From Rhizaria sp. SCN 62-66 (Eukaryota), in the NCBI GenBank assembly GCA_001724265.1, contig MEDY01000003.1, positions 62,001 to 126,000 of the forward strand: 64,000 bases of DNA, written 5' to 3'. Each line of letters begins with the position of its first letter. The first letter of the stretch is position 1. This document shows, piece after piece, positions 21,582-63,082 of the stretch. The notes under the pieces are model-generated. The model saw nothing but the letters and a program-made list of their open reading frames with translations, was not told the origin of the DNA and did no database searches. Made by a program: the position numbers and the translations under genes.

Positions 21582-24500
21582 TTACGTGTCAAGCTGGCAG
21601 AGCAGCGCGACACCGCGCTTGACCCAGTGGCGTTCCTCCTTCTCGCTGGGGAGGTTAATGGCGATGATGTAGTTGCTCGACTGGCCGAGCGTGGTGAGCA
21701 CGCCGTGGCGCGCGCTCGTCTTGTACACGGGGCACGCGTACGCCAGCCGATTAGCGCTGATCTTGCGTGTCTCGCGCGGCTGCAGCCAGATGACGGGCAT
21801 GTCCGAGTAGAGCTGCCGCGGCTGGGGCTCGGCGAGCACGCCGCCCACGTAGGCCTGCGCCGACTGCGCCGACGTCGTCTGGCCCTGCGCCTGCAGGATC
21901 GCGCCCTGGCTCGAGTCCCAGCGCGCGCCCTCGAGGAAGAGGCCGTGGATGTAGCACCCGTCGGCGGGCGGCACGGGGTGGTCGGCCGCGATGTGTGGCA
22001 TCACTTGGAAGTCGAACGAGATTGCGTCGATCGCGATCTTGTACTTGCGCGCGTAGTTCTGCAGTACGCCGGTGAGGAATGACTGCGTGAAGAAGAAGCC
22101 CGAGAACCAGAACACCGAGGGCGCGACGCCGCGGTCGACCCACGTGGCGAACATGTCGATGCGGCGCTTCAGATCCGCAACCCAGGGACCCAGCGGCTTG
22201 CGCGACGGGTACGCGCTCTCGGCCCACAGCGCCGGCACCTTGGCGTCGTACATGTCGCTCGCCATGCTGTCGAGCTTGCCGGACATGACGATCTCGCCCT
22301 TGAGCGCGCGCTGCAGGTCGCGCAGCGACGAGCGTACAACGTTGAGCAGCTTATTGTAGCGCTGCAGCTCCTGCACCAGGACAGTGTTCATGCTGTCGTC
22401 GTACGACACGGGGAACTTGGCGGCGACGTGCTGCAGGTCGAATGGCGCCGGGATCGCCAGCTCCATCTCGGCCGCCATCGACGCCACCGTACGGTCGCGG
22501 TCGCTCACCACGGCGTGGCCGCCCTGCGCGGCGTCGTCCTTGCTTTCCTCCGACGCACTCGCGCTCGCGGCAGCGGCGGCGGCGGCGGCGGCGGTCGCGG
22601 CGGCCTCCTTCTCCTTCTCAGCCGCGTGCGCCGCGGCGGAGGCGGCGGCGGCCGAGTTGGCGGGCGGCGGCGCCGACACCGCGTGCTGCTGCACCGTGAG
22701 GGCCCACTCGAAGAGAGTCTGCGCCTCGCTGATGGCGACGGTGATGTTGACGTTCTCGTGCAGTCCGAACACCTCGGCGCTGTCCTCGGCGGGCAGGTTG
22801 CGCACGTGCTGTCGGATGCGACGCAGGTCCGCGCCGGGCGGCGGCACCGGGTAGCTCGCCGTGGGCGCGGCGGGCGCGGGGGCGGCCCCAGCGGCTCCGG
22901 CGGCACCGGCGGCCGCGGAGGCGCCAGTGATGGTCGGGGGCAGCATCGCGCGCGCGGCGGCGACGGCAGAGGCGGCCGCGGAGGTCGAGGTCGTGGGGCA
23001 GTCGAACGAGTACTGGTCGTCAGAAACGACATACTCGTTGATGTGGTCGTCGAGCATGACGCTCAGGCAGCGGCGGTCCCAGTCGTCGGTGACGCGGCCG
23101 CCGTAGTTGAGCTGGCCAATGAGGTAGCGCAGCGCCTTGTAAGGTGGCGCGTCGTACATGTTGACAAACTCCTTGAGCTGAAGCTTGGAGATGGCCAGGT
23201 CGCCCTCAGTGAACTGGTAGTGGATGTTCCACCCCATAGGACCGAACTTGCGGCGCTCCTGCACCACGGCGTGGAAGAAGCACAACCCGTAGAAGAGCTT
23301 CTTGAGCTCCTCGGGGCGCTTCGCGTCCTCGACCCAGTCGTTGGCGCCGGGGGTAACGCCGAAGCCGCGGAAGGACTGCAGCACGTTGGCGCGGATGCCC
23401 TTAGGCGGCTCGTTGGCCATCTTGATGCCGTTCTGCAGCACAGACGCGGGGAAGTCGGCCGAGGGCATCGAGGTGAGCCAGAGTCGGAAGGTCGGGCCCG
23501 CGGTCGACGGGTTGAGCTCGTCGACGATCTTGTGCAGCATGGGGAGCCACTTGACAAGGAGGTGGCAGTTCTGCAGCAGCACCCAGCTGCCGCGGTCGAC
23601 GGCCTCGCGGATAGCGGCCTCGGCCAGCGGGCCCTGGCCCTGGCCGAGCGAGATGCGGATGAACTTGTCCGGCGTGTTCATGCCCTTTTGCTCTGCCAGC
23701 GAGATGATGTCCTTGATCGGGTCGACACCCTGCGAGAGCAGGAAGATGAGCGGCGTCACGGGGTCCGAGTCGGCGAACGCACTGGCGAGGTCGAACATCG
23801 GCGGGTTGACGAAGTCTGCGCCGATCTGATCCGAGACGAATGTGCGGACGCCTGCCACGAGCTTATCCGGGCGGAACACGCGCAGCAACACGAGGCGGTG
23901 CAGCGGTGCCGTGAGCACGCGGCCCCACGCGCCGGGCATCGCGCACCGGTACGGGTCAGGATGCTCGGCGAACGCGCGCCACAGCTTGAGGTTCTCGCTG
24001 AAGTGACGCACGATGCCCGTGAAGGCCGGGAGGCGGTCCAGCTCGAGCAGCTGCAGCCACGCGATGTCGGGCAGCCACTTGTCCGCAGACGCGGGGGCGT
24101 GGCCCGCGGCAGCCTCGCGCTGCTCCTTGTCGCCCACGTCGAGCGCGGTCACGGAGCGGCGGCGGGTCGAGACGGCGTCGCGCAGAGTGTTGTCCGCCGC
24201 GGCGCCTGGCGCGGCCGCCTTCTGCTGCGCCTGCGACTTGGTCGCAGAGCCGGTGGGGTTGGGCGGCACGCCCGCGGGGTCGACGACCGAGGCGCCGCCG
24301 GTGAGGAGAAAGCGCAGCTCACGGTCGTCGACCTCGCCGCGGCCGTTAAGCAGGCGCAGCGTGAGCATGAGCGAGAAGAGCAGCTTGTGGCGCTCGTACA
24401 AAGACATGGAGATAGCGTTGTAGAGCAGGTGGATGAATGTGTTCTGGATGTTCTTGATGCGAATCAAGGACGAGCTGGACGGGTTCGCCTCCTGCATCGC

Positions 24501-27500
24501 CTTGTGGAACACGGCCTGGTACCAGCGCAGCGAGTTCTGGTACATGGGGTCGATCTGCGCGAGGTCCTGCACGCAGAAGAACAGGTTCGACACGACGGCT
24601 GCCAATGGCTGGTACTCGGTGCGCGTCTTAGCGATGTTCTCCTGCATGCGCGCGGCATCGGCCATGCGCTTCTCAATCAGACGAGAGGCCTGCTTGGACT
24701 TCTGCAGCGTATTGACGAGATCCTCGTCGTCGAGCAGGTGACCGGCGGACTTGAGCAGGTGGTCGAGAATCTTATCCTCGATCATCGCGAGCTGGCGCTG
24801 GTTTTCGGCCGACTTGAGCACGAGCTCGTTGCGCGTCTGCTCCGTGTCGGGATCGTCGTGGCGCACGGCGCGGCCGAGCATCTGGTCCTCCAAGCCCTCG
24901 GGCGTGACCATGAAGTTGATGATGGTCACTGACGTCGAAGTCTCGGGCTTGAACACGGGGTTGCTGAGCTTGGTCGTGATGTAGAGACGGAAGTTCTCGT
25001 TGTACTCGATAATCTCAGCGCCGAAACGAAGCATCGTGCGGTTGGACTGGCGGAACGTGTTCTTGTTGAGCAGAGGGTCAAGAGCAGGGTCGACGACGGA
25101 GCCGACGTTCTCGATCATCACAGGTGCGCCCTCGGTGATCGCGAGCGACAGCGTGCGCATGAACTGGTCGTCAGTCATCTTGATCACGCGCAGTGCCTGC
25201 GGGGCGCCACCGGTCTGCGCAGCAACGGCAGCCGCGAAGTCGGCCTCCATGCTGCGGATCCACTTGGACGCCTGCTCCTGCGGGTCGATGAGCAACGGGA
25301 AGCGGAGCGCCTTGGTGAGGATGATGGCGTTGTCGGTCGAGAAGTCGTCCTTGGGCAGCGACTGGATGCCCCACTTGCGGATGAGCACGGGGTCGCCGAG
25401 CACGCGGTGCAGCGAGAAGTCCGCGTCGCACGCGATGTGGCGCTTCTGGAGCTCAGACACCCAATTCTTGAGGCAGCGGTCGCGGAACGCGAGTGTGAAG
25501 GGGCCCAGGAAGGCGATGGCACCAGATGACAGCATGATGTTACCGACGACATTGTGGTAGTCGGCAGCGAGCTGCGTGGCGCGCTCAAGCCAGCGGTCCT
25601 TTTCGTTGCGAAGCCCGGAGACGAGCTTCTCGGCGCGGTCAAGGCGGGCAGAGCATTCGGCAACCTGCATCTCGAGCGACTTCTTCTTGTGCGAGGCCAT
25701 CTCGTACTGGTTGTTAAGGTCGTCAAGCAGCGTCTGGATGTCCTGCAGCTCCTGGTTCTTGGCGGCGAGGTTGGCCCGGACCGTGAGCAAGGACTGCTCG
25801 GCCTGCTCCAGTGCGATGCGCTTCGGCAACACCTGCTTGTTGATGCGGTCGTACACCTCCATGGCGATGACCCAGCGGCAGAACTTCTCCGCCGCGAACG
25901 ACGAGTGTGCGATCTTGCTGGGCGCGAAGTCGGGGTTGTCCGTGAAAGGACGGATGCGGTTAATGACGCTGTTAGGAATGTTATCCTTGTCGTAGTTGGT
26001 CATGCGCTTAATCAGCTGCGTGTCGGACAGCAGCTTCTTGCGGCACGGCTCCCAGTAGTCATCCGTCTTGGAGCCGACCTGGCCGACCTTGTGAGGCTCA
26101 ACGCCGAACATAATACACAGCGCCTGCGCAGTGAGCAGGATACCGGGCGTGGGGGCCTTCATGACCTTAAGCTCATCAATCGCGTGCCTCGTGAGCACCT
26201 TGAGTGCCTTGAGCGCCTGGTTAACGGCAGGCATGGCAAGCGCGAGCTGAGTCTCGCACTCCTCCTTGATCTTGCTGGCGATCTCAGCCTGCTCGTTGCA
26301 CTCGGCCTCTTCGGCGGCAACGATCTTGCGCGTCTCAGCGACCTGGGCGGACTGCTCCTCGATGGTCTTGATCAGCGTCTGTGTCTCCTTGCTCGACTCG
26401 ATGAGCTGCGGTTGGAGCTGTTCGAGCTGCACCTGCATGTCCTTGACGAGCAGCGCAGTCTCGTTGAGCTTGGTGAGACCGGTCTCGTACTTGTGCTGCG
26501 AGGCCGAAATCTCGCTGCGCTTGGACTCGAAGAGCGAGCGGAAGACCTGGATGAGCGACAGGTACGACGTGGGCGTGACGTAGTTGACACGCTTCAGCGA
26601 CGCCTCGAAGTCGGCAGAGAGCTTCAGCGCGGACTCCTGCATCGTGACGCAGATGTCGACGAGGCCGGACTTAAGCTGCGCGTCGAGGTCAATGTCGCGG
26701 AGGAAGCGCGTGGCGACCGTCTGCAGTGCGACTGAGGACCAGGGGTGGAACCAGTCGATCGTGGTGCAGTTGACGAGCGAAGGGTACATGCGCAGACGGT
26801 TGCGGAACGACTCGCCAACGGGCGACATGCACACGACGACGTGCACGTTGTGGCGGCAGCGCTCGACGAAGAAGTTAAACACGGACGCGTTGGACTCGGC
26901 TTTGCCAGCCTTACGGGCGTCGGGGAGCACCTGCTCGATGATGGGCATGTAGTCCTCGAGCGGGAAGAGGTTGGGCACCTCACCGTTGTTCAGAATGTTG
27001 TTGATATCCTCAAGGAAGCTCTCGTGCTTAATCTGAGCGTCGGAGATCAGGAACGCGATGGGCTTGTTCTGGATACCAGCCTTGCGCATGACATCACGAA
27101 GGTCGTCGCGCCACTCGTTCACGGAGTACGCCTTGGTGAGCGAGACCTGGAACAGAGTGTAGCCGCCGATGAAGGCGGCGAGCTTGGTCAGCGACTGCTT
27201 GCCCGAGCCGCCCATGCCGACCAGCAGCGCGTTGCCGAACGGCTGGCGAATGATGCGGCTAATGCGCGACACGTGCTCGATGGCGTCCTGGAAAAGCACG
27301 AGCGTCATCTTGGTGCGCTCGAACGCGGCGTAATCAGCCAGGTAGCCCTCAAGCACGGTGCCAAGCTCGCCCATATCCTTGACGGCACTGTACTGCTTCT
27401 TTGTGACACGAGGGTTAGTGAAGTCGGCGTAGAGCGAGCGAGACAGAGCGGACAGACGCTCGCCGGGGATGCCGGTCTCAGTCTCGGCCGCCATCGTGCG

Positions 27501-30500
27501 CTCCTCGTCAGACGTGATCTGGTCGACGGTGACGTAGAAGTGCTGCTTGAGCGCCTGGCCGAGAGCGCGGTCGAACCACAGACGGTCCTGCATCGACATG
27601 AGACGGTCACCGAAGACACGGTACATCTCGTGCGCGAGCAAGTGAATGAGCTCGTTGGCCTCCTCGAACTGGTCCTTGTTGGTCTGCATCACGCCCTGGA
27701 ACACCTTGCCAACGTCGCGTAGGTTGAACGTGTAGTGCGCCTTGGCCGGGGTCGGCAGCAGCGTGGTGACGACCTGCTCATACAGGCCCACGGTCGCGTT
27801 GACGATGCCCTCGCCGAGCTTGGCGATCTTGGCAGGGAACGGCTTGAGCCACCACGACAGCACGGGCTTGAACAGCGCCTTAAGCGCGCCCGAGTCGTAA
27901 GGCGTCAGCGTCAGGTGGTTGAAGTGGCGCATGTAGCGCGGCGTGATGGGGTGACGGCCACCGCCGGGAGGGCCCATGGTGGCCACGAACTGGCAGTCGA
28001 CGATCTGCGTGAAGGCGTTGTTGCGACGGTTGTACCAGCCGCCGTAGTCCATGTACTGGCGCAGCAGCTCGATGGGGGCCTGTGCGCCGTACTTGTCGGG
28101 CGCGGGCATGTTGAGGTCGTCGACGCAAATTACGCAGCGCTTCGAAGGCGGGGGGCCGAGGGCCTGGACGCCGGGCAGGCGACGGCGCTCGAGCTTGAGG
28201 TCGATGATATCCTGAGTCTGGTTCGCGGTGGTGCGCGCAGAGAAGGAGATGAACATGGGGATGTATGCCGTGCCGGAGAGCTCGCGGAGCAGCTTCTGGC
28301 TGACGATGTTGGTCTTGCCCGTGCCGGTGGGACCGACGAGGGTGACGTTCATGTTGGCCGTGATGTAGCGCTCGAGCAGCCACGACATACGAACACTCTC
28401 GGACGTGGGCACGATGATCTCGTGGAATTGCGCTGTCGCGGGGATCGAGAAGGGCGGGATCGTGCGCAGCCACGGGTTCCAGATGTGCAGGTTCTTGTCG
28501 TACATCATGTCGAACACGTTCCAGTCGGTCAGGCTCGGCATCGCGATCGCGTTCTCCGTACTCGACGCCAGCGGCGCAGTCATGATTAGAGAGGCCTTGC
28601 GGGTAGCGAAGGCATGCTCGCGGGACTCGTCAGCAGTGTAGTCGCAGCCGCCGAAGGCGTCGAGGCCGGCACCGGGGGCGGGGGAGAAGAGCGAAGCAGG
28701 GGCCTCACCGGACATGAGGTGGCGGATCAGGTCGCCAACCTTCTCGCGGCCAGCGAGGTCGGTGCTGGCACCAATAGACCAGATGACGGCCATGAAGAAG
28801 AGAGGCTCAAGGCGGTCCGGCTTGATCAGGGGCTGCTTGGCAGCGTTGGCGGCGTTAGCAGCCGCGGCCGAGTTAAAGTCCATCAGACCGAGGTCAGCGC
28901 CGGGACCAGCGGGAGCAGCGGGAGTCGCGGGCTCAGCAGCCTTTGTAGCAGCAGCGCCGTTCGCGCCGTTGCCGTTGGCGCTCGCCGTGCTGTTCGTGGC
29001 AGCGGGGAACATGTCGCTGAGGTACGTCCAGTAGAGGTTGAGCAAGTTCTGGACCAGGATCGTGGCGTTACGAGTGACGACGACATGGCAGTGGTCCGCG
29101 AGGAACGCGAGCACAGGAGGCAGAACCCAGTTGCACAGGCCCTGGATATAGTCGATGTGCTCAGAGAACTCGGGCGCGGCCGCGAGCAGGCGGTTGGCCC
29201 ACGACTTGAAGACAGGGCGCCAGCCAAGCTGGTGAGGCTCGCAAAACACCATGCCACAACGTGAGACGGTGGCCGGGGAAGCGACAGCGAGGTCAGCAAC
29301 TTCGAAGATCATGGACATACTGTTAGTAAGCTTGATCTGCTCGGAGTTGGCCAGGCAGAGCTTCTTGTTGTCATCGAGCACGGTATTGAGGTTCTCAATC
29401 CAGAGGGCGTCGACAGGACCATCGAACACAACCCACTGCAGGTGCGCGGGGCGGTACGCGAGCGCAGGGAGCGAGCCCGCAATGGTGGCCTGCAGAGCCG
29501 CGTTGTTGCTCGTGAGCGCCGCCGCGGGAAGCAGGGCGAGCGTCTCAGCAGGCAACTCCGCGACTGAGGCGGGCGCGGGGGTGGCGGCGTTGGCCTCTGC
29601 GGAAGCAGCAGCCTTGCGCATGACGACGGGCAAAACACCGTCCGTCCACTCGTGCGTGTTCGGGTCGTCCGCACCGTAGATCTGGTCCAGAGTAAGCGAC
29701 TTGGGGTTGATGAACTTGACCTCGACGACGCCGCACGAAGCGCGGGTCGAGCCGGCGGACGCGGAGACAGTCATGGGCTGTGCGCGCGACGCCGCGGCCT
29801 GTGCGGTCGACGCGGCGGTCTGCGCAGCGGCCTGAAGGGCGGCGGCGGACTTGCCCTTGGCCTTGGAGGCGAGGTGCGCGGCCTGGATGGCAGCAACGGC
29901 GGTGGCCTGGGCGTCGGCCAGGTGCGCGGAGGTCATCTTGGATAGGGCCTGGGAGAGGGTCTTAAGCAGAGACGACTTGCCGGACATAGTGCCACCGACG
30001 AGCATGAGACCGTGACGAACTTGAGTGGTGTCGTAAAGCTCGATACATTTGGCCATGAAGTTCTCCGTAGGCTGCAGGTTGTCGGCGGCGCAGACGTCGC
30101 GGCACGCCGTCTCGAGGGCGGCGTGGTCGCGGCCGGCGATGACGGAGCCCGGGAACAGGTCCTTAATGAGGGACATGAAGAGCGGGATGTCGGCTGTGGT
30201 AAACTTGGGCACGTTACAGTCGTAGATCGAGCGCAGCACGAGGCGCTCCTCCGAGACCTCAGGCGAGGCGCGCTTGTTGCGGCCGCAGGCGAGCAGCACG
30301 GCGTTGAGGTTACGCATACCGAAGTCGTAGTGGTCCTGCGACGAGAGCTGCTCGGACGAGAGACGGAGGCAGGCAACGATCTTGCGAGCGAGCTCGCGCG
30401 CAGTGGCGTAACCGAACGCGTAGAGCTTGATCTCAGCAATCATAGCGTAGTCGGGAATCATCATTGCGACAGTGCGGAACAGCGACTTGAGGTTGTCGGG

Positions 30501-33500
30501 AAGCTCGGAGCGACCCGCATAACCGGGATTCATGGTGATGAAGACGGAGCATGTGTGTACAAGGCGCAGGTTGCTGCCCTCGAAGTGGAACGTTGGCTTG
30601 CGCTCGAACACAGCGCGCTGGATGGTCGAGATCTGCTGAGCGATGACGGAAAGCACTTCAACTTCGATACGGTTGAACTCATCGAAGCAGCACCACGCGC
30701 CGGTCGCCGCGAGACCCTTGAAGAACTTGGCCATGGCACGGTGGTTAAGCGAGTCGGAGCCGTTGAAGACAACACACTGAATGCCGACAGCCTTAGAGAG
30801 ATCCTTCGTGGTCTCGGTCTTGCCCGTACCGGCGGGACCCTCAGGTGCACCGCCGAGGTTGAGGTGGAAGGCGGACATGAGCGTGCGGAAGCAGCGGTCC
30901 GTGAGCGGCGTGATGACGAGACGTGTCATGTTGCCGAGATACTCGTATCCGTAGTCCATCTTGGCGTTGATGATGCGCACAGTCATGGTGCCGTTGGCAA
31001 CCATCTTCTTCTTCTGGACCGCAAACTGGGGCAGCTTCGACATTGCAGTCACCTCATCAGCCTTGGCCTCCATCGCCTCGCGCGCAGCGGCTTCCTCGCT
31101 CTGGCGCTGAGCAAGTTCGGACAGAGCATCCTCGTACGCAGCAGCGCGGGCAAGCGCGACCTCGCCGCCGGCGCCAGCGCCCGCAGCAGAATCAACACTG
31201 TTAATCGAGGCAGTGGCGGCGTCGAACTCGTCCTCGGCGCCCAGCGCGAGCTCGGCCTTGCGGACCTTCTCCTCAGCCTCCTTGACCGTGAGCAGCACAG
31301 CGGCGTGCGCAGCCTTGGCCGCGAGGGCCTCGGAGCGCAGTGCCTTGAGCTCAACGAGCTCGGCGGCGCAGAGCTGCGGCGACACGACGACCTCCTCGGT
31401 CAGTGTAGTGTCAAGCACAATGTCGGCGTCCATCGAGTGGGTGTTGGCGGTGGTCTTCTTGCCGGGCAGCGCCATGGAGTTGGCACCAGCGGCGTTGCCG
31501 TCGCTCTCCCAGTAGTAGCGCAGCTGCGAGAGCCACTCAAAGTCGTTGTGGTCGCGCACCTGCTCGCGGATGAGCTTGGAGACGACGTCACGCGCGTGCA
31601 CGTCGAGCACGAGCAGGGGCTCGAGGGTGAGGCGCTTTAGCGCGGGCATGTCGCCACGAACGAGCTCGACCAGGTTGCTGAGCTGGCGGTTGAGCATGTC
31701 CTCGAGCTGTTCAAGGCCCTTGAAGCCGCGCTGGGTGAGTGCAGTAGTGACCTCGCGCGTCCACATGAGCTGGGACACGGTGAGGACGGACTGCGACGTA
31801 AGAGCGGGCTCGAGAATCCAGTCGTTGCGCTTCATCGTGACGTAGTCGCCGATGGCGCCACGGGTGTTGCGCTGCAGAGTCTGCTTCATGAGGCGCTCGA
31901 CCTCGGCGATCCACACCTCGACGTTGCCACGCTTGGCGCCCTCGTTGGGGTCGACGTGCTCGTTAAGTGGCACGATCTCACCGTCAGACGAGGTCATCGC
32001 AGTGATGATCTGCTGCTCAGGAGTAAACACAAGCTCGTGCATGGCGTCGAAAATCTTGGGCAGGTGCGCCTGGATGGCAGTGGCGTCCTTGGTCTGGGAG
32101 AGGATCGAGAGGAGCTCGTCGTTGGACAGGAAGAAGAAGCGCGGATAAGCCATGCGCTTGGTCTCGAGGTACTCGTTGAGGCCGCGAGAGATGGTCTCCA
32201 GCAGCTTGTTAGACTCCTGGAAGGTCTTAAGCAGGTTATCCGTCTCGGACACGAGATCCATGATAAGCGGAGTCTTGAACGCCGTCTCCATGGTCTTGCG
32301 CCAGTACGTGTCGACGACGCCGAAGCGACGCGCCTCGATGGGCATCTGGCGCATAATCTCGTCCGAGTTGAAGATGGGCTCAAGGTAGAGCCAAGTCTTC
32401 TGGCACAGCAGCCACTCCTCCATGATCTGCGCAGTCAGCTGCAGACGCGTCTCCCACTTCTTGGTGCGCGCCTCGAAGAACTTGACGTACGGCGAGCCGC
32501 GGATGCCCTGGGTCTTCATGATCTGGTCATCAAGCAACACGAGGATCTCCTCGTAGCCCTTGACGATGTATGTGCCCGTCCTCTTGTAGGGCTCGATCTT
32601 AAGCGCCATGTCGCGCCACTCGCGGCGCATGCGCTCGAGCAGCGTCTCGAGCTGGAACTCCTTTGTCGCGTACATGCACAGGTCCTCGATCTCCTGCTTG
32701 TGCTGCATGACGTCGAGCGTGAGGATGTGCGACAGTGTGAGCTCGTGGTCCACCGTGATCGGGGGCTTGCCAGGCGCAAGCAGCGTCGACAGCTCGTCCC
32801 AGTGGCGCGGGCGCAGCGTCTTGGGCGAGAGCCAGTGAATGATGGGGACGATCTCCTTGAACGCGGCGATCTTGTTCTTCATCTCAGTCGCCACGCGCGC
32901 GGGCTTCAGACAGTCGATCGACAGGAACTCGCGCTCGAGACGGTACATAAGCTTGTACCAGTCGTTGACATCCTTCTCGATCTGGGGGGCGTCGAGATCG
33001 ATGAACGAGCCGGTCATCCATTGCGTGTAGCTCGAGTTGAACAGCGCGGTCGTTGACCACAGCGCATAGTACGGCTTGAACTGTTCGCGCACCTGAGTGA
33101 GCTCGGGGTACTCCTGGGGCTGGTCGCCGAAGAGCTGGTCGCGGGTGTTAAATGACTGCACGAGACGCTCGGCTTCGTCCAAACGCTCCTGGAGCTGGTC
33201 GACGCGGGCGGAAGACGCCTCCATCTGAGCCGAAGGGCCCATGCCGAGGTCCTTGAGCTCGGCGACCTCCTTGGACGCGGCCTCAACGTCGTTGACGAAC
33301 TTCTCCTGCTCGTCGAGCAGCTGCTTCTGGAAGAAGCGGTTGTCGAGCTCGATCTGGATCTTGGCGTCCTCGAGCGCGGCGAGGATGAGCACGGGGTACG
33401 ACACCGTGGTCCACGCCGTGGAGAAGACCGACTGCGGGACGTGGTAGCGGAACTGCGCCAGGCAGTCCATCGTCTGCTGCATAACGGCGATAGCGCGCTG

Positions 33501-43964: not shown

Positions 43965-44410
43965 AGTGAGATGCTCAACGGCTAGAGGCCGACTAAGGTG
44001 GCTGTTCTGGTTCTTGCTAAAAGCCTACGCAATTATTATATTGAAAAGGAATTATTAAGTAAGTATACATTTTCACAATAGGACCTAAACTTGCGTTGAC
44101 GGAAAAATGACGGTATTCAGCTTGGAAAAATCAAGGGTACCTCGAAGCCCCTCGACTCGAGGCTGTTGGAGCTCTAGACAGTGCGACCAACTCTCCACCA
44201 TGAACCAATCACATCACAATCGTCAGCTGGTATCACGTTCCTCTTGAATAGCATCAACGCATTAGCGTATCTATTTTATTTAATTTTTTTCCTCATCAAC
44301 CCTTCTCTATCCCTGTCTTTGCTCCACCTTGCCACAGCTCTCACACACTCTCGACAACCAGCAACGACTCTTCCCCCATCCTCAGTCTCCACACACGCAC
44401 GCATCCCAGC
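43965..44410. promoter_or_regulatory. Divergent intergenic region between the EF-hand gene and TFIP11
   Basis: 446-nt AT-rich gap between head-to-head genes; inferred from position only. Confidence 0.5.
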
Positions 44411-47400: not shown

Positions 47401-48382
47401 TGAGAGCGCCTCGTGGCCGCGGTCCGAGGCCGCCAAATTCGTCACGCGCGCCGTGCTGCCGCGGCTCGCTGCGGCCACGCGGGCCGGGGTCACGGTCAGG
47501 GGCTGCGACGACTTCAACGCAGTCAGCCTCAACTCCAACGCTAGCACGAACAAGGTGAACATCAACGCGAGCTTCAATGAGGTGTTGGTTGCGGCCCCAG
47601 AGTCGGCAGCCGCGGTGGCGTCGCTGCTGTGCATGTGGTCGCTGGTGCTGTCCCCGGAGACCGTGAGCAAGTCGGTACTCGTGCCCCACGTGTTCCCGCA
47701 GCTCTTCGCCGCGCTCTACCATGGCCTCTCCACTCTCCAGCAACAGCAGCTGCACGGCGGCGACGCTGTTAGTAGCGCCGTTGCGGCAGCGGCGGCGGCG
47801 GCGCGCCGGGCCGCGCAGTGGCTTTGCGCCTGGCGTCAGTCCTTGCCGCGCGCAGTCGCCGAGTCCGCCTCCGCGAAGCCCCTGTGGACCGCGGCAGCGC
47901 GGCTGCTGGAGACGCTCACGGCCGCCGCGCTCGCGGCGCATGGTGGCAGCGCGGCCGCTGCGACTGCAGCGGCGGCGGCGGCCACGGACGCGGTGCTCGG
48001 GGCGATCCTGGCCCTCGAGGCCGCGGCGCAGACTCACACCGCTGCTTCGACGGCGGCCGCCGCGGGCGCTGGGCTCTACAGTGGCGGCGCGGGCCGGACG
48101 CCGCCCTCCGTGGGCCTCGGTGTGGGCGCGAACCTCGGCGACCGGCCGCTGCTGCTGCGCGAGGTGCTCGAGCTGCTGGCGGCGTCGGAGGGGCTCGTGT
48201 ACGCGCCAGACCGGCAGCGGCGCGTTGCCAAGGACGGGAAGCCGGTGTTCATGTTCGGCGAGCACGTGCCCGTCGTCGTCGACAACGAGGTTGCGTGGAC
48301 GCGCGCTGCCTCGGGCGAGTGGGAGGCCGTCACGCTCCAGGAGCTGCTCAACCGCGCGAAGCGCTTCACGGCTGTCGCGTGA
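44411..48382 (+). CDS. TFIP11: Tuftelin-interacting protein 11 / Ntr1 (Spp382), G-patch spliceosome-disassembly factor, about 1,257 aa; exons 44411-44494 and 44693-48382
   Basis: PIRFVSGG N-terminal motif, G-patch FERYTKGFGMKILRMYGFRGALGKTEQGVTGHVNVVVRPKNAGLGY, coiled coil, and C-terminal LREVLELLAASEGLVYAP...DGKPVFMFG block. Phase-0 intron CGC|GTACGT...CTCAG|AGC. Ends TGA. Confidence 0.85.
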
Positions 48383-51184: not shown

Positions 51185-54100
51185 ATGAGCTCGGGTTACC
51201 CCAACGTTGCGCCCCCAGCTGCTTCTCCGGAGGCAGCTGCTGAGCCCGCCTTTGACGCCAGCGCTAGCTTTGACAGCAGTAGCAGTAGGAGCAGCTTTAA
51301 CTTCGGGCACAGCAGCTTCGCCAACAACAACAACAACTCGAGCAGCGCTAGCAACGCGAACACCCCGGGCGCTTCTGTCAACATCGGCGGCAGTGACGCC
51401 ATCCGCGTCCTCTGCCGTCTCCGCCCACCGGACCTCGCTCTCCTCTCGGGCAACAGCAGTAGTGGCAGCAACAGCAGCTTTGGCAACACGAGCGGCCGCG
51501 GCCGGCCGTTGAGCGAGGCTGCAATGATATCGAAGCTCGCGGTGTTCGCGAACGACATCTCCGGCCAGAAGATCGAGCTCGTCACAACCCCCACGAACAG
51601 CAGCCACCATAGTCATCATCATCATCATAACGCACATGCGCACGGCAGCAACATGAGCTCCGCGTCGACGACGCCCGTGAGCGTGAGCGGCGCCACGACG
51701 CCCGGCTACGCTGCGAAGCACCGGTCCAAGGCACTGGAGTTCTCGTTTGACCGTGTATTCAACCAGTTCACCCCGCAAAAGGAGGTGTTCGCTGAGTGCA
51801 CCGGCATGCTCGACGCCGTGCTGGCCGGCTACAACGCGACGATCTTCGCGTACGGCCAGTCGGGCGCGGGCAAGACGTGGACGATGGAGGGCTCCGACTG
51901 GTCGAGCAACAGCACTGGCCACAACAGCCATCAAAGCGACCACGGCACCAGTTCTGTAGTCGGCAGCGGCGGCGCTGGCATCATCCCGAACTCGATCGAT
52001 TACATCTTCAACGCGGTCACGAGCAACACGGCCGCCGCGACAAGCAGCACGGGCGGTGGTAATCGTGAATATCTGGTGCGAGCGAGCTACATCGAGATTT
52101 ACAATGACCTCTGCTACGACCTGCTCTCTGACGCGCCGTTCTCGTGCACTCTCCCCGTCGTAGAACGCACTGACAAGACCGGCTTCGAGGTCTCAGGCGC
52201 GACTGACATTGTGGTGACCTCGGCCAAGGAGCTGCGGCGCGTGTTCCGCCGTGGGCGCGCCTTTCGGCGCCAGGCCGCGACCACCAACAACGACCGGTCG
52301 TCCCGCTCGCACGCCATCTTCACTATCTGCGTCGAGTCGTCGCACGCGCTCACGACCAAGCTCCAGAGTGGCGGAGCGGGAGACGCGGCGGGCGACTGGG
52401 GCGTGCGCGTGGGCAAGCTGCACTGCGTCGACCTCGCCGGTTCCGAAAAACTGCAGGATAAGGAGGCGGAGGTGAAGCCGCGCGTCCGCGAGTCACAGAC
52501 GATTAACCAGTCACTGCTGTCTCTAACGCGCGTCATCACGACGTTGTCTCATTATCAACAACAGCAGCAGAAGCAGCACGGTCGGTTCAGCGCGACTGTG
52601 AGTGCGAGTGCGAGCTTCGACTCGATTCCTTCTTCGAAGGACAACAACGCGATGTTCACCAACACTGGCACGATCATCGGCTCAGCGTCACACCATCACG
52701 ATGGGGCTGCTCACGGTCACTCCGCCCACGGTTCCGCCCCCTTGCACATTCCGTACCGGTCGTCGAAGCTCACGATGCTGCTCAAGGACGCGCTCGGCGG
52801 CACTGCCAAGACGCTCGTGATCGCGGCCGTACGGCCCGAGGCGTGCTTCATGGAGCAGTCGCAGAACACGCTGCGTTTCGCCGCGCAGCTGGCCACGATC
52901 GTCAACCGGCCGCGGCGCAACGTCGACTCCAAGGAGGGCCGGCTGCGGCTTATGCAGCAGCAGTTGTTGCTGTTTCAGCGGCTTGTGGAGAGGCAGGACT
53001 TGGACGGACTCGATGACGCAATTCGCGCTTTGTTAGTGTCCATCGGCGTCAATACTAATAACAACAACACCAGTAGCAACAACAGCGCAGGTGCGAATGC
53101 TGCTGTTGCTGAGGACCATACTCAGAATCACAATCACCGTCATACCCACGAGAACTGTGCAGCTGCCGCTGTTTCGGGCACTCAGGGCGCCGGCGACGAC
53201 ACAAGCAGCGTCACGAGTGACCAGATGCTGCTGTGCTCACACTGCCAGTCGCCGATGGCGTCCCCGTTTGGCTCGCCGCAACAGACGCAGCAGCTGCGGA
53301 GACTACAGCAACAACAGTTGTTGCAGCCGCACACGGAGGGCGTCGAAGACGACGCTGACAGTAGCAACATCGGTACACCTGATCACAGGGGCGCGGTGCC
53401 TGTGACGCCGAGCGGCGGCAAGCCCCCCTCGGTTAAGAGCCCGCCCCACAGTCACTCTGCGCACGGTCACTCTGCCCACGGTCACCGCCGGTCGGCGTCG
53501 GTGCTCACGGCCCCGATCGACTGGCTGCACCTGCCCGCGCCCACGGTCATGGCCGCGCTGAACAACAGCAGCAACAACAACTGCGGCGACAGCACTCGCA
53601 GTCATGGCGGTGGCGGCGGCGTGAGTGCAAAGCCCCCCGCCCACAGCGGTCTTTTCGCCGGCTACAGCAGCAGCGACCTCGCGGCGCTGTCTGTGCTGCC
53701 CACGACGCCGCGCTCTCTCGCCCTGCACCTGTCCCGCGCCGCGCGGGGGCTCCCGCCGTTCCCCTTTCCGCCCCACTCGCCCTTCGTGCAGAGCGGCCAC
53801 GGTCACGCCAGCGGCCACGGCCACGGCCACAACCACGGCGGCGGGGTCAGCGCGGCCGCAGCGGCGACGTCCCCACTTGCGACCAACGCGGTGACCGCGG
53901 CGGCGGCCGCGGCGGCGGTTGCAGCGGCCGAGGCGGCGCTGGTGCGCGGCGGCCCGTTGTCACGCGGTACGGTTGCGGCGCTGGCGCAGTCGATCAAGAG
54001 CATCAAGGCCGTCATCAAGTCGCCCACGCGGGCCTCGGCGATTGCAGCCGCTAACAAAGGCAAAGGTAACGTGTTTTTCCCTGCTCCGGACGCCAACGGT

Positions 54101-57100
54101 GACGACGACGATGACGACGAGGATGACGGTGATGACACTGACGCGGTTGTTCTGGCTAAGATTAACGTCAACAACATCAACACCATTAAGAACTCAGATA
54201 GTGCTACCGACCGTCAAAGTGACGCTGTTGCTCCTAAGATTGATGATGACGGTGGTTATGATGACACGTACGATGACGTGGACATGGACAGCAGCCGCAT
54301 CAGCGCACTCAACTCGTCTCGCTCTGCCCATAACACTAACACTCACAGCAAGAGCAACGCAAACAATGCGCGCCGTGACCCTCGTGTAGCACCCTTACAC
54401 TTGAGCCACTTGCATCAGCTCACTCAGCAGAGCGACAGTGCGAATGCGAGCGCCGACAACACTGCGAAGACTGCGACCAGTGTCGTAAGCGTCAGCGGCA
54501 GGGATAGTATTGGCGCGGGCCACCGCGCTGTGACCGTCCGCCCCGCCTCTGCCCGCCTGCTGCGCCCCACCGCCTCCAGCGCTGCCCACAGCCACACCGC
54601 CGCCGCCGCAGAGGCTCACGGTGGCCAGGGGCGGGGTGGCGAGGCGCCGACTCTGTCCAACATGCTTTTCGGCAACTCGCGCTCGCCGGCGCCAAAGTCT
54701 TCCGGCGCGCACAGCAGCAACCCACATTGGGGCAGCAACGCCGGCGCACTTAGCAACCGCGCTCACCCGCGCGTGACTGCGGCGAACGGCGGGGATGTTT
54801 ACGCGGGCTCTGGCGTGCCCGCGGCTGCCCCGGCGTCGGCGCGCGCCCGTGTGTCCACCGCGGGCTCGAAGTTAGGCCGCCAAGCGTACCCGGCTTCGGC
54901 CTCGGTCGCGGCGCGCGATCATGACGGCAACACGAGCACCGGCAGCTGTGACAGTGTCGGCGTTAACGCTGGTGCCAAGGGCGTCCGCTTGTTTGACAGC
55001 ACGTACACCCCGGTCGTTGCGCGCAAGCACAGCGGTGTTTATAACAACGGTCGGCAGTCGCCGGTGTCACAGCTGCGCTTGCAGTCGCCCGGCGGTGTTG
55101 CTAGCAATGGCAGTCGGAGTGGCATGCCTGATTTGCCACGACCCCAGTCACCGTGGCAACTCAAGCAACAAAAACAGCAGCAGCAACAACAGCAGCAGCA
55201 GGTATGCGACGGCGATGGCAACGATGAGAACAACGATCTTGGCAACAGCAGCAGTACTAGCCGCGCTCGTTCGCGCTCAAACTCCCTTGCTCGCTCCCCC
55301 GGAGCCGCGTCGCCCCGCACTAGCGGCGGCCTAACTTCCCCCGGAGGCGGCGGCTTGACTTTGAGCAACAAGCCGCTGCTCGCCTTCGGCCGCGTCGTCG
55401 CCCCGACCACGCCCCGCAGCCCGCCGCCGGCGCCCGTGTCGCTGTCCGCCGCGGCCGCGGCCGCGGCCGCCGAGGCCGCGGCGCGCGCGGAGGCCGAGGC
55501 CGCCGCGGCCGCTGCTGCGGAGGCGCGGGCGCAGTCGCTCGCGACGCCTGCGTCCGTGGCAGCCGCTATTAAGACCGCGACTGCGCTCACCAAGGCCATC
55601 CAGGACGGGCTGTTAGTTGACGCAAAGGCAGTTGAGGAGGGCACTGCGTCTGCCGTAGCCGTCACTGCATACGCTGAGCCGTTCCCCTATCCCTCGTCGC
55701 GCCCCCTCACTCAGTCACAGCGGACCGCGCAGTCGCCGACCGGCTCTGGCTCTGGTTCACGGTCACTGTCTGCTGTGGCTGCGGCTGCTGACGGCTGCAG
55801 TGTTTTGTCCGCCGCCGACGCCGCTGCTCTGCGGGCCGAGGCCTCGGAGGCGCAGGCGGCGGCGCGGCGCGCGGCTGCGGCGGCGCTGGCGGCCAGGTCC
55901 GCCAGCGACAAGCTGCTGAGCGCGCTGCGGGGCCACGCCGAGGCTGCGGCGACGGCGGCGGCGACGGCGACGGCGGCGGCGACGACCGCCACGGCGGCCG
56001 CGGTTGACGCTGCTGACGCTGCGTCCAGCGTCAGCACTAGCAACAACCCATGTCTTGGTCTTGATCTTGATGCCTCTCGGGGGATTGCAAGTCCTCCTAG
56101 TGCGAGTGGGAACAGCTCGGCGAGGGCCGGCGTGTCGTGGCAAGGGCTCGGTCTGGATGAGGGACTCGATGACACGGACTGTGTCAATCCCTCGACAGTC
56201 TCCGCGGCACAGGCGGCGAGCGGTGTCAGTGACGCTGGTGATGATGACGATGACGAGTATGAGGAGGTTGAGGAGGAGGTGTTTGTGGAACAGCACATCC
56301 CGTCTGCTACCCCCAGTCAGCTGAGCTCTCCTGCCCACGGTCCCTTCGCCGCCCACGGTCACTTGGCGCCGACCCACAGCTCCCTGGGACCTGCTCCTAG
56401 CCACCACCTGTATGCCAAGGAGCCCTCTGCGTGGGCGTCGCTGGCTGCGCTTGCGCCCGTGTTGAGCGTACCGCACGGCAGCGTCATCGTCCCGACGAAC
56501 GGTAGTGCAATTTTCCCAGCTAGCATTGGCATTAATCCTGCTGCAGCGAGCGTTACGAGCGCAACTGCAGATGTGAACAACGTGAGCAGTGCTGCGCCTG
56601 GCACACCTAATGTCAGTAGTCATCTTTTGACTGCGGATGTGGGTGCCCGCGCCAGTTCTTTTGCCCCCAGCGCTACAGCCACTGCCGCCGCTGCTGCTCC
56701 TGCTGCTGCTCCTGCTGCTACGGCGACGGCTACTCCCGCTCTCGCGCCTGTTGCTGCTTCCATCGTCGCTGCGAGGGCTGGCCTCAGAGCCTCACATCCG
56801 TACACTCCCCAGCAACAACAGGGTGCAAACCTTACCCAGAGCGCCTACAGCGCTGCTGCTGCTGATGCTGCTCCCACTCAGGCCCCCGCGGCTGCTTTGG
56901 CTGCGACTAAGACTGCAACCGCGCCCAGTGCTGCGACTCCGTCGACTGCGACTGCATTGACTTCCGCGACTGCGTTGACTTCCGCGACTGCGCCGGACGC
57001 GGACTCGCTTCTGGTCCTCACAGCACTGCTCCGCAGCAAGGGCTTCCACGGACCCTCGGCCGCCGCGGCCGCCGCACACTTGCTCTCAACGCTGCCGCCC

Positions 57101-58363
57101 CACGCAGCCCCGTGGCAGCACTCGGCTACCGCCGCGCTCAGCCGGAGCTACGATAGCACTGGGAGCCCCGGCGCTGTCGTACTCTCGACGCAAGGCCAGG
57201 GGACTGAGACTGCTTTGACTGCGCCTAATGCGAGTGCGGCGAGTGTTGTGTCTGCGGCGGAGGACTCTGCTGCAGTGGCTGCAGCTGCGGCTGCCTTTGC
57301 GCGCCACGTCTCCATGACGCCGCTGTCCCCGCAGCTGCTCCCCCACCAGCACCAGCCTCACCACAGCCGCGCGGCCTCGAGAGCCAACTCCCGCCCCTTC
57401 TCCCGCATCAACTCGCGCCCCGGCTCCCGCGTCGGCTCCCATCCTGTCGCCGGCTCTGTCTCTGGCGCGGTGGCCGCGCCGCTGCCGCTGTCGGCGCTGC
57501 GCAACGAGGCGAGCGAGCGGCGCCACGTGGCCGCCACCGCGGGCGCCGAGTCGCGCGCGCGGGCAGAGCTGGCCGCGCGGTCGCGGGCGCGGGCGCGCGC
57601 GCAGTCGCAGTCTCGCTACGCGCAGTCGCAGCCACAATCACAGACTCAAGAACCTGACGCCAGTGCAAGCAGTGCGATTGCGGGTGCGCCTGTTATCGTG
57701 GACTGGGATAAGGCGCGCTCGCGCCGTGCGCTGTCGCCGTTGTACCAGCGCCCGCCTACATACATTCAGGACCCTTACGTGACGGCGCAGGGCCCATATA
57801 TCGCGGTCGCTGCGTCGTCTAAGGACCTCAGCGCGACTGCTGCGCTCGACGCTCAGCTGCTCGCCCACAGTCACTTGCTGACTGGACCGACTGCTCACGG
57901 TCACTCCACCGCTCACGGTCACTCTGCGGCTGTCGACGCTGCCCACAGTCGCTCGCGCGTGCACGAGCAGCTGCACTCGCGCGAGACCGTGGCGGCCGCG
58001 TCGCGCCGCGTCGCGCTGCGAGCCGCCGCGACCGCCGCTGCCGCGGCGGCGGCGGAGGCCAAGGCCGAGGCCGCGGCCGAGGCCGAGGCGGCCGCGGCTG
58101 CTACTGTGCTGCGCACGCGCAGCGTTGCAGTCAAGGCCGCCTTTGGCACCGCACAGGCGCCACCTCGCCAGTCTGCGTCGAGTGCGCATGGCAGCAACGC
58201 GACGGGTCCCGTGAACCCTGCCTCTGCGACGGTGAGCGGAGCCGGGCTGCTGTAGCAGTGGGAGACGGCCAAGGCGCTGCAGAGCGCCGAGGGCGCCAAC
58301 GGCAAGGCGCGCCGCGTGCTTGAACACGCGCGGCGCGCGCTCGCGCTGGCGCACTCGAAGTGA
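51185..58363 (+). CDS. N-type kinesin with a very long low-complexity tail; 2,356 aa to TAG 58253-58255, or 2,392 aa if that TAG is read through to TGA 58361-58363
   Basis: Motor motifs IRVLCRLRP, FSFDRVF, FAYGQSGAGKT (P-loop), SYIEIYND, NDRSSRSHAIF (switch I), VDLAGSE (switch II), HIPYRSSKLT. ATG at 51185. The 3' end is uncertain (see findings). Confidence 0.88.
56950..56991 (+). repeat. 18-nt tandem duplication encoding TALTSA twice in the kinesin tail
   Basis: gactgcattgacttccgc gactgcgttgacttccgc gactgc. Confidence 0.75.
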
Positions 58364-58732
58364 GCAGTGCGCTGCGTAATGAATGCTGCGTATCAGTTGC
58401 TGCGTAACAGTTTTGTTGCTGGAGAGGTTGCGTTTTGCGTGATATGCGATGATATGAGAATGGTTACACTAAAAATAACGGATAACGCACATTATATGCG
58501 CTTGGCTTTACCTAGATACACTTTATTTACTTTGATCCTTTTATATATCACTATGACATTGACGTTGTGAAAGTTTGCGACCGTTTGTGGTGGAGAGCCA
58601 CGAGGCCTGATGACATCGTCCATCCATCTTCACTCTTGGAATTCTCGACACATCATCGTCATTGCTATACACCACGCCCACATCGAATTTTCTCACGTTT
58701 ATAATTTCTTGTTCTGTATTTTTTTAGTCACC

Positions 58733-60727: not shown

Positions 60728-61183
60728 TTACGGGATGATGGGGCGCGGGGGGTTCTTGATAAAGTCGAGGGGGAAGGGGACGTTGCGGCCGAACATGTTG
60801 CCGCCGGGCAGGCGTTGCACTGCGCACAAGAGAGCGAGACAGGGTGATAACAAGAGAGCAAAATAGAGGGAAAGTGAGCGATGACGAGAGGCGAGCGCGG
60901 GAGACGTAAGAGATGGGCTAAAACCGGTGTCAAAGAGGAGGGGAAAGGACGTACCGCGGTAGGGCTCGCCGGAGAGAGTACGGAGAGCGTACTCCTCGGC
61001 CTCGCGAACAGCGAGCTCGATCTGTCCGGGGTCCTGAAGGTCGCGCTTGGCCTCGAAGGCATCGCGGGCCTCGCCACACTTCTCGGCGTAGCGGTGGCGG
61101 CTGCAGTGGAACCAGTCGAAGTAGTTCTTAAGGATGCGGCGGTACACCGTCTTCACACGAGCAGCATGCGGGGTGACCGACAT
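60728..61183 (-). CDS. NDUFB9: Complex I LYR-family subunit, NDUFB9/B22-like, 106 aa; exons 61183-60955 and 60819-60728
   Basis: VKTVYRRILK (LYR-like), W, ARDAFE, EPYR and PGGNMFGRN motifs. Phase-1 intron G|GTACGT...GCGCAG|TG. Ends TAA. Confidence 0.82.
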   Translation of the reverse strand: MSVTPHAARVKTVYRRILKNYFDWFHCSRHRYAEKCGEARDAFEAKRDLQDPGQIELAVREAEEYALRTLSGEPYRGTSFPLLFDTGFSPSLTSPALASRHRSLSLYFALLLSPCLALLCAVQRLPGGNMFGRNVPFPLDFIKNPPRPIIP

Positions 61184-61804: not shown

Positions 61805-63082
61805 TCAGTGGAGCTTGGGGAGCGCGCCGTCGGCACGGTACTCGCCGACGACGACGGCGTGGCCACGCTCGTAGGGCTCCAGAGTCACGTACTCTTCAGG
61901 CTTGAAGCCGTAGCCCTGGAGCTTCTTGATCTCGGCAGAGAAGACGGCCTCAGCAGGCGCGGTCGAGTCGATACACGACGCCTTGATCGAGATGACGCAC
62001 TTGCCGTTGTTCTTGAGGAAGTACTGCGAGTTGTAGGCGACGATACGCGCCTGGTCGGGCTGCGCCACGTCGGCGAACACAACGTCGACCATGCCGACGA
62101 GCATGCGGTAGTTGAGCGGGAGACGCGCGTCGTCGACAATGGGGATGATGTTGGGGCGGCGCTTGGCCATGGTCACGAGGTCGCGGCCGGGGCGCAGCGA
62201 GCGCTCGACGGCGTAGACCATGCCCTCGGGGCCGACAAGGTCGGAGACGTGCGAGACGGTGGTACCGGAGGCGGCGCCGATGTACAGCACCTTGGATCCG
62301 GGCTTGATGTAGATGTTCTCGACACCGTTGGCGACGGCGGCAGACAGCTTAGAGCGGAAAGGGTTCCACATGCGGTACTCGATCTTGCCCTCGTCCGTCT
62401 CCACGGCCACGCGCTTCTCGCCGTAGACGCCCGTGCCGGGGTCCATGGAGCGGGTCGCGAGACCGTCGTCCTTGCCACCGGAGAGGATGAACACGCCATC
62501 CAGACGGTGACGCTGGACAGTGTACTTAGAGCCACCGGCGCGCTTGGGGGCACCGCCGCGACCGCCACGGCCACCGGCACCGCCGCGGCCACCGCGACCG
62601 CCAGCACCGCCGCGGCCACCAGCGCCGCCACGGCCGCCGCCGAAACCACCGGCAGCGCCACCACGGCCACCGCCAAAGCCTGCGGAAAGCGGGGGAGTGC
62701 GCGCGGAGGGGCAAGAGAGAGGGAAAAAGAGAGGAGAAGCAACAGAGGAGCGAAGGAGTGGGGCAGGAGAAGGTGAGAGTCGGTGGGCGTTTGGTGTCGT
62801 TCGAAGCCACCACGGGCAAGTGGGAAGTTTCGAGGGATAATGCATGCGGGATCGCATGGGAGTTGTTTCAGAAGTAGATTAACTCGAATGGTTTTTCATG
62901 TAAAGTGTGATATGCGATCAGAACGCGATGAACGGGTCGAAAGAGAGGCACGGCTGTCGCCACGCATAAAAAGTGGGCGAGGACTGAGGGAAAAAGGAAT
63001 GCATGAGATACGTACCACCACGACCGCCACGAGGAGCGGCACCACCACGGAAGCCACCACCACGACCACCACGACTGCTCAT
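61805..63082 (-). CDS. FBL: Fibrillarin (NOP1), rRNA 2'-O-methyltransferase, 313 aa; exons 63082-63016 and 62679-61805
   Basis: RGG/GAR N-terminus ([10 protein letters not shown]), [55 protein letters not shown]. Phase-1 intron G|GTACGT...CCGCAG|GC. Ends TGA. Confidence 0.96.
62680..63015 (-). other. Fibrillarin intron (336 nt), the longest intron in the window
   Basis: GTACGT donor, long pyrimidine tract and CCGCAG acceptor; phase matches both flanking GAR exons. Confidence 0.88.

What the first reader, a model, noticed from the sequence alone, without database searches (positions are those of the whole stretch)
21582..61807. Window-wide stop usage: only TAA and TGA terminate, TAG appears only in apparently internal positions
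Seen: dynein, coiled-coil and NDUFB9 end in TAA; ALDH, EF-hand, TFIP11, VPS28 and fibrillarin end in TGA; kinesin ends in TGA if extended. Both in-frame TAGs look internal. Established: UAG/UAA uncoupling is rare in nuclear codes but reported in a few protists (UAG=Leu in a sainouroid rhizarian, UAG=Gln in Iotanema, UAG=Glu/Leu/Gln in some ciliates). Caveat: only 2 TAG occur in roughly 18,700 modelled codons and none in the 6,278-codon exon, so TAG would be a very rare sense codon. That fits an early or intermediate reassignment stage, or context-dependent (+4 C) readthrough, better than a mature variant code. Nine genes is a small sample.
Basis: partly seen in the sequence, partly recalled or inferred. 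Interest (0 to 1): 0.75.

Follow-up and report, generated by a model that had tools for sequence, protein, structure and literature searches.

The report
Two amber codons in cercozoan genes
Two otherwise intact genes of an unnamed wastewater protist each carry a TAG "stop" inside coding-looking sequence; TAG is far too rare to be a normal amino-acid codon here, so these are either two recent mutations or an early, leaky stage of a genetic-code change, and this window cannot tell which.

Summary
In 11 gene models (18,629 codons) there are 3 terminal TAA, 6 terminal TGA and 2 TAG. One TAG is codon 79 of a 1,037-codon, nine-exon EF-hand-like gene that is otherwise intact; it is unchanged in a contig from an independent study. 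The other is followed by 35 strongly coding-like kinesin codons. Both are UAG-C. A dynein tree places the organism in Cercozoa (Rhizaria).

A mature UAG code is rejected: about 180 (Gln) or 325 (Glu) TAGs would be expected, against 2 seen. The pattern is also weaker than it looks. About 66% of new nonsense mutations in this codon usage make TAG, and 0 of 8 terminal TAGs has P about 0.10 at 25% usage. No homolog could be aligned at either TAG. No RNA, tRNA, eRF1 or genome was available.

Best reading (0.45): standard code with two young amber stop-gains. Close rival (0.38): lineage-wide leaky or nascent UAG sense decoding, which would be a real intermediate of codon reassignment. The case is unresolved but cheap to settle from the source metagenome.

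The parts
43471..43473 (-). In-frame TAG, codon 79 of 1,037 of the EF-hand-like gene, mid exon 3; context CAG TAG CTA
   Evidence: unchanged in X4 contig 42857-44702
39806..43964 (-). Nine-exon EF-hand-like gene: 8 GT-AG introns of 100-152 nt, frame open for 958 codons after the TAG, ends TGA
   Evidence: codons 80-1037: LLR +326 in frame, -390 and -451 out of frame; gene was in the training set. The EF-hand label is mostly recalled; no Pfam hit for 5 exon pieces
58253..58255 (+). In-frame TAG, codon 2,357 of the kinesin; context CTG TAG CAG
58256..58363 (+). 35 coding-like codons plus TGA after the kinesin TAG (GC3 0.94)
   Evidence: LLR +41.3 in frame, -3.1 and +5.2 out of frame; -16.7 to -85.5 after the 9 TAA/TGA stops
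58232..58255 (+). Possible 24-nt GT..AG micro-intron that would remove the kinesin TAG in frame (unlikely)
   Evidence: the 14 modelled introns are 100-336 nt
51185..58363 (+). Kinesin gene, single exon; ends TAG at 58255 or TGA at 58363
   Evidence: PF00225, E 1.7e-79
21582..37019 (-). Axonemal dynein heavy chain, 5,145 codons, no TAG, ends TAA at the homologous C-terminus
37751..39433 (+). Aldehyde dehydrogenase, 2 exons, ends TGA
   Evidence: name from motifs (recalled), not scanned
44714..48382 (+). TFIP11-like (G-patch + GCFC), ends TGA
48762..50441 (-). Coiled-coil protein of unnamed eukaryotic family, ends TAA
58748..59714 (+). VPS28 (5' end unresolved), ends TGA
60728..61183 (-). NDUFB9-like LYR protein, 2 exons, ends TAA
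61805..63082 (-). Fibrillarin, 2 exons, ends TGA at the homologous C-terminus
1..20960 (-). Giant unknown gene, at least 6,944 codons including the 6,278-codon exon; GC3 0.58, no TAG; runs off the window
63472..64000 (+). Ankyrin-like gene, runs off the window, no TAG in 135 codons
   Evidence: name recalled from motifs

Best explanation
The organism, a cercozoan, uses the standard code, and UAG still terminates. The two TAGs are young single-base stop-gains (for example from CAG or GAG) fixed in this near-clonal lineage. One nulls a low-bias EF-hand-like gene at codon 79; the other trims 36 residues from a low-complexity kinesin tail. Basal UAG-C readthrough may soften both. The lack of TAG at the other 8 ends is small-sample chance. 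Shown: the TAGs, their coding-like surroundings, strong depletion of TAG in coding sequence. Inferred: termination at these TAGs and their recent origin.
For: TAG is about 90-160 times rarer than a synonymous codon should be: 2 seen, against 181 if Gln (from the TTG/CTG ratio) or 325 if Glu (from AGG/CGG). It is rarer than the rarest sense codon, ATA, with 5, and absent from 6,944 low-bias codons where about 98 would be expected if Gln. One-step nonsense mutations here yield TAG 66% of the time, so both being TAG has P 0.44. 0 of 8 terminal TAG has P 0.10 at 25% usage. Samples are near-identical: L001 matches at 3,409 of 3,409 nt, and the 8 listed X4 pieces carry 2 differences, so the independent copy does not show selection on the TAG. 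A standard-code cercozoan also rarely ends genes in UAG (Guttulinopsis, PMC5304391 section 8).
Against: It needs two disruptions among 11 genes, both nonsense, with no frameshift and no internal TAA or TGA. Both have +4 C (first-base C frequency 0.265, so about 0.07 for both). The EF-hand-like gene keeps 8 canonical introns and 958 open codons after the TAG. The kinesin tail scores at the 90th percentile of 328 coding windows. No gene clearly ends in TAG, although G-ending codons are favoured.
Confidence: 0.45

Rival explanations
1. Lineage-wide weak or nascent UAG sense decoding (ambiguous intermediate, or very recent codon capture). A suppressor or near-cognate tRNA and/or an altered eRF1 lets ribosomes pass UAG, especially UAG-C. 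TAG has therefore been purged from gene ends and is tolerated only rarely inside weakly expressed genes. Residue: Gln or Glu most likely. The EF-hand TAG seems to fall at a Glu column, but that family motif is recalled and was not confirmed here.
For: 0 of 8 other termini are TAG; both TAGs lie in sequence with in-frame coding signal; both are UAG-C, a leaky context in most systems tabulated in PMC4615788 (passages); EF-hand TAG shared by an independent study; the organism is in Cercozoa, which holds the one known rhizarian UAG reassignment (PMC5304391).
Against: Usage is 0.27% of Gln or 0.23% of Glu codons, against about 8% of Gln in Iotanema and 18.5-31.8% in phyllopharyngean ciliates. No aligned residue was found. 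No tRNA gene lies in the window. None of the 40 listed variants, including those of a related organism in X4, creates a TAG. My searches found no published eukaryote with such low use.
Confidence: 0.38
2. Gene-specific recoding under a standard code: programmed UAG-C readthrough or a 24-nt micro-intron in the kinesin, and readthrough, RNA editing, re-initiation at a downstream ATG or a second intact allele for the EF-hand-like gene.
For: GTGAGC...CTGTAG at 58232-58255 would remove the kinesin TAG in frame; C-terminal readthrough extensions are a known class (PMC4615788 passages); assembled contigs drop minor alleles (header).
Against: All 14 modelled introns are 100-336 nt, and 10 of 14 begin GTACG; the 24-mer is GC-rich. 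No workable micro-intron covers the EF-hand TAG. Programmed readthrough at codon 79 of 1,037 would be unusual (own knowledge). Two separate mechanisms are needed.
Confidence: 0.14
3. A mature UAG-only variant code (UAG=Leu as in rhizarian exLh, or Gln/Glu), with TAG as an ordinary synonymous codon.
For: No terminal TAG; cercozoan affinity.
Against: 2 TAG in 18,629 codons, none in 5,145 dynein or 6,944 low-bias codons. In exLh most of 71 conserved genes had in-frame UAG; 78-91% of genes do in phyllopharyngean ciliates. Here 2 of 11.
Confidence: 0.03

Closest known systems
Rhizaria sp. exLh (Sainouroidea), UAG=Leu (PMC5304391; abstract, background, passages and section 8 read)
   Same: Cercozoan; genes end only in UAA/UGA (56 and 15 there; 3 and 6 here); in-frame UAG present.
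   Different: There most of 71 conserved genes carry UAG and 82 of 86 hyperconserved sites are Leu. Here 2 of 11 genes, about 0.1% of Leu codons, residue unknown. Sainouroid membership was not tested; the nearest named dynein is from Mataza (Thecofilosea).
Iotanema spirale, UAG=Gln (PMC5304391)
   Same: UAG inside genes, UAA/UGA at ends; the lowest UAG use among the codes I read about.
   Different: 204 UAG in 126 genes, about 8% of Gln codons; here 0.27%, about 30 times lower. Unrelated lineage.
Ciliate UAG codes: phyllopharyngean UAG=Leu/Gln (PMC11687900, passages) and Oligohymenophorea sp. PL0344 UAG=Glu, UAA=Lys (PMC10553269, passages)
   Same: UAG uncoupled from UAA.
   Different: 78-96% of genes carry UAG and suppressor tRNAs were found in several genomes; here neither is shown.
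Ordinary premature stop codons and basal or programmed UAG-C readthrough (PMC4615788, passages)
   Same: Single in-frame UAG with +4 C; C-terminal extension in the kinesin; Gln, Tyr or Lys inserted at UAG in yeast.
   Different: No known motif beyond +4 C (no CAA-UYA); readthrough not measured; two cases within 15 kb is more than usual.

Membership tests
UAG-only reassigned nuclear code | UAG not used as terminal stop in conserved genes | tested here: inconclusive
   0 of 8 (1 of 9 if the kinesin ends at TAG); P 0.10 at 25% usage; only 3 termini checked against homologs
UAG-only reassigned nuclear code | In-frame UAG widespread, a sizeable share of one amino acid's codons | tested here: not met
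   2 of 18,629 codons, 2 of 11 genes; about 181-325 expected
UAG-only reassigned nuclear code | In-frame UAG aligned to one conserved residue | tested here: inconclusive
   No homolog aligned at either TAG
UAG-only reassigned nuclear code | tRNA with CUA anticodon | not testable with these tools
   No genome held; 0 tRNA genes in the window
UAG-only reassigned nuclear code | Altered eRF1 N-domain | not testable with these tools
   eRF1 is not among the window's 11 gene models; no genome held
UAG-only reassigned nuclear code | UAG present in mature mRNA | tested here: inconclusive
   RNA runs X5 and X8 have zero depth in the bin holding the EF-hand TAG; no listed piece covers the kinesin TAG
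Context-dependent readthrough | Leaky +4 context and coding-like sequence after the stop | tested here: met
   UAG-C at both sites; in-frame LLR +41 (kinesin tail) and +326 (EF-hand)
Context-dependent readthrough | Stop and extension conserved in related species | tested here: inconclusive
   No relative covering either site was found
Recent nonsense allele / pseudogene | Real in DNA, one step from a common codon, no other decay yet | tested here: met
   EF-hand TAG in two studies; TAG is 66% of possible nonsense changes; no other lesion
Recent nonsense allele / pseudogene | Relatives carry a sense codon at the site | tested here: inconclusive
   Kinesin forms with Glu or Gln at the TAG are not in the collection, but neither is the form ending at TAG
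Cercozoa (Rhizaria) | Groups with cercozoan orthologs | tested here: met
   Single-gene FastTree of 90 dyneins: clade with Mataza sp. D1 at 0.93, with Plasmodiophora at 0.994

The most novel reading that the evidence does not exclude
An uncultured, widespread wastewater cercozoan is caught in the middle of a UAG stop-to-sense reassignment. UAG has left gene ends and is read as an amino acid (Gln or Glu) at about 0.2-0.3% of that residue's codons, some 30 times below the lowest rate among the published codes I read. It would be a second rhizarian nuclear code change and a living intermediate of codon reassignment.
Probability: 0.35. Interest if true: 0.85.

Novelty: already known. Interest (0 to 1): 0.42.

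Why it matters
If the best reading holds, this is ordinary: two young amber mutations. If the close rival holds, it would let the ambiguous-intermediate and codon-capture models be tested in a nuclear genome, where the published cases I read are all end states. It would also mean that screens based on abundant in-frame stops miss low-use codes. The organism recurs in bioreactor and wastewater runs of 6 studies (four runs hold over half the sampled words), so the test needs only existing data.

Tried and rejected
No whole genome is held, and the loci lie in no held record.

Homologs for the EF-hand TAG column:
- phmmer of the 42-residue exon against 1.84 billion representatives gave 4 hits, all unrelated repeat proteins.
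- PDB: 0 hits for exon 3 and 1 spurious hit for exon 4.
- Pfam: no meaningful family for 5 exon pieces.
- Metagenome scan with exon 4: 465 pattern matches, 0 confirmed.
- Atlas with exon 4: no usable hit.
- A recalled family motif in viral contigs gave 8 matches, all chance.
- Of 23 viral EF-loop matches, pairwise alignment never covered the TAG; exon 4 aligned to an EF loop at p 0.002 in one, post hoc.
- A single-sequence AlphaFold model of exon 3 gave two helices, pTM 0.42, uninformative, so no fold search was run.

Kinesin tail: 201 candidates, none scored.

More DNA of the lineage: the fibrillarin motif scan gave one identical copy (L001) and one unrelated locus (L002). Viral and GTDB scans gave nothing of the lineage. 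Exact look-ups found 4 of 10 queries, only near-identical members. Runs X6 and X8 gave short identical pieces away from both TAGs.

Rejected: assembly error for the EF-hand TAG; the EF-hand TAG as a splice acceptor (it breaks the frame, or needs a 9-nt intron); a mature variant code. Considered, with weak support only: decay of flagellar genes (dynein is intact over 5,145 codons). Earlier scan notes held nothing on this genome.

Full report
Setting. No genome is held. The window is 61% G+C, with spliceosomal introns. Its DNA is held by 11 listed public runs from 6 studies (bioreactor, wastewater, activated sludge, microbial fuel cell); 4 hold over half the sampled words, and one may be the source. 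It lies on a 141,735-nt contig. A FastTree of four dynein motor regions (the window plus the 89 of 120 hits that had all four regions, midpoint-rooted) nests the window's dynein with unnamed environmental sequences and Mataza sp. D1 (support 0.93). Plasmodiophora is sister to that group (0.994), and alveolates lie outside. On one gene, the organism is a cercozoan; the genus is unknown.

Observation. I rebuilt 11 gene models with 14 GT-AG introns of 100-336 nt. Nine have a stop in the window. Of 18,629 codons, TAA occurs 3 times and TGA 6 times, always last, and TAG twice. The 6,278-codon exon (1-18834, minus strand) is real and has no TAG. Three termini were checked against homologs: dynein, fibrillarin and VPS28; six were not.

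First TAG. It lies at 43471-43473, codon 79 of a nine-exon, 1,037-codon gene (CAG TAG CTA). All 8 introns are canonical and the frame stays open for 958 more codons. Those codons score +326 bits in frame under a codon model, against -390 and -451 out of frame; the gene was in the training set. A 1,846-nt contig of run X4, from a different study, spans 42857-44702 with one difference, at 44619, so the TAG is not an assembly error. It cannot be spliced out by a plausible intron. From memory of EF-hand families (FD...E-L-F...K-I-x-F-L-F), the TAG sits at a Glu column, but every attempt to test this failed. The residue is unknown.

Second TAG. It lies at 58253-58255, codon 2,357 of a kinesin (CTG TAG CAG). 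The next 35 codons have GC3 0.94 and score +41.3 bits in frame (-3.1 and +5.2 out of frame). That is above all 11,238 overlapping non-coding 105-mers (maximum 22.5) and at the 90th percentile of 328 coding windows; the 35 triplets after each of the 9 TAA/TGA stops score -16.7 to -85.5 (the tail was left out of training, and the 135-codon ankyrin model was in the wrong frame in that call, fixed). So the tail is coding or was until recently. A 24-nt GTGAGC...CTGTAG stretch could remove this TAG in frame, but it is a quarter of the shortest modelled intron and GC-rich. No homolog of the tail was found. None of the 32 pieces or 40 variant rows shown covers this site (5,465 pieces and 151 rows were not shown), so it is unconfirmed outside the window.

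What the counts exclude. If TAG were a synonymous Gln codon, the TTG/CTG ratio predicts about 181; if Glu, the AGG/CGG ratio predicts about 325. About 98 would be expected in the low-bias giant gene alone, which has none. TAG is rarer than the rarest sense codon (ATA, 5). Published UAG-only codes are far denser: about 8% of Gln codons in Iotanema (PMC5304391 section 8), most of 71 conserved genes in rhizarian exLh, 78-91% of genes in phyllopharyngean ciliates (PMC11687900 passages). A mature variant code is rejected, and UAG is strongly selected against inside genes.

What the counts do not show. Because G-ending codons dominate, 66% of one-step nonsense mutations give TAG, so 'both are TAG' costs only 0.44. 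Zero TAG among the 8 other ends has P = 0.27, 0.10 and 0.03 at 15, 25 and 35% usage; if the kinesin stops at TAG, usage is an ordinary 1 of 9. The lineage is near-clonal: L001 is identical over 3,409 nt and the 8 listed X4 pieces carry 2 differences. Sharing of the TAG therefore shows age no greater than the clone's. Against this stand two disruptions in 11 genes with no frameshift and no internal TAA or TGA, and +4 C at both sites (about 0.07 by chance). +4 C is a leaky context in most systems tabulated in PMC4615788 (passages). X4 also holds a related organism with mostly synonymous differences in the coiled-coil and VPS28 genes; none of the 40 listed variants creates a TAG.

Mechanism. Best reading (0.45): standard code; UAG terminates; two young amber stop-gains, one nulling the EF-hand-like gene and one trimming the kinesin tail, perhaps softened by basal UAG-C readthrough. 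Close rival (0.38): UAG is leaky or newly captured across the lineage, purged from gene ends and tolerated at low frequency inside weakly biased genes, probably as Gln or Glu. Gene-specific recoding (micro-intron, editing, re-initiation, hidden second allele) gets 0.14, and a mature code 0.03. These weights are my judgement from rough likelihoods of similar size, not a computed posterior. The window was also selected for this pattern from a very large scan, which favours coincidence.

Comparison and membership. It resembles exLh and Iotanema in its end codons, and it shares Cercozoa with exLh. It fails the defining feature of widespread in-frame UAG, so it should not be filed as a UAG-reassigned code. 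My searches (listings only, apart from the four papers named) showed no rhizarian nuclear reassignment other than exLh and no low-use intermediate. The library lacks most subscription papers, and I read no supplements. An earlier scan note (e1-7131282) reports a wastewater microbe with five UAGs in a helicase, possibly Glu; it is another genome with a roughly 30-fold higher rate, and I could not test any link.

Verdict. It is ordinary on the best reading, but there is about a one-in-three chance of a reassignment intermediate that specialists would find very interesting. Binning the organism from existing runs would decide it.

Noticed in passing
window 1-20960 (-): Giant gene of at least 6,944 codons with a 6,278-codon exon, low codon bias (GC3 0.58). 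No Pfam family at E up to 1 in exon 1 or in 4000-18834; 1-3999 was not scanned.
   Followed up: partly
window 59108-59700 (X8 record 32): An 854-nt contig fits from 59108, four bases before the VPS28 acceptor, with its first 140 letters not fitting the intron. This looks like a spliced cDNA, so X8 may hold mRNA of this organism.
   Followed up: no
window 49854-50091 and 59416-59529 (run X4): A second, related organism: 9 of 9 listed coiled-coil codon changes and 6 of 7 VPS28 codon changes are synonymous. A useful outgroup for the TAG sites.
   Followed up: partly
window, fibrillarin 61805-63082 (-): The usual VYAVEF motif reads [13 protein letters not shown]; among 120 hits only the window's own protein and P0005 (89% identical, 30.8-kb contig) have the Arg.
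   Followed up: partly
window, 14 modelled introns: Donor consensus is GTACG in 10 of 14, and +5 G is invariant.
   Followed up: no
window 58510-58750 (+): The VPS28 5' end is unresolved: no nearby ATG in GC-rich sequence; probably a further upstream exon.
   Followed up: no
window 37077-37100 (-): The in-frame TAG 57 nt upstream of the dynein ATG follows a pyrimidine tract and looks like a splice acceptor, so dynein may have an upstream exon.
   Followed up: no
L011-L014: Eukaryotic dynein genes on contigs of four bacterial species-representative MAGs, probably contamination.
   Followed up: no
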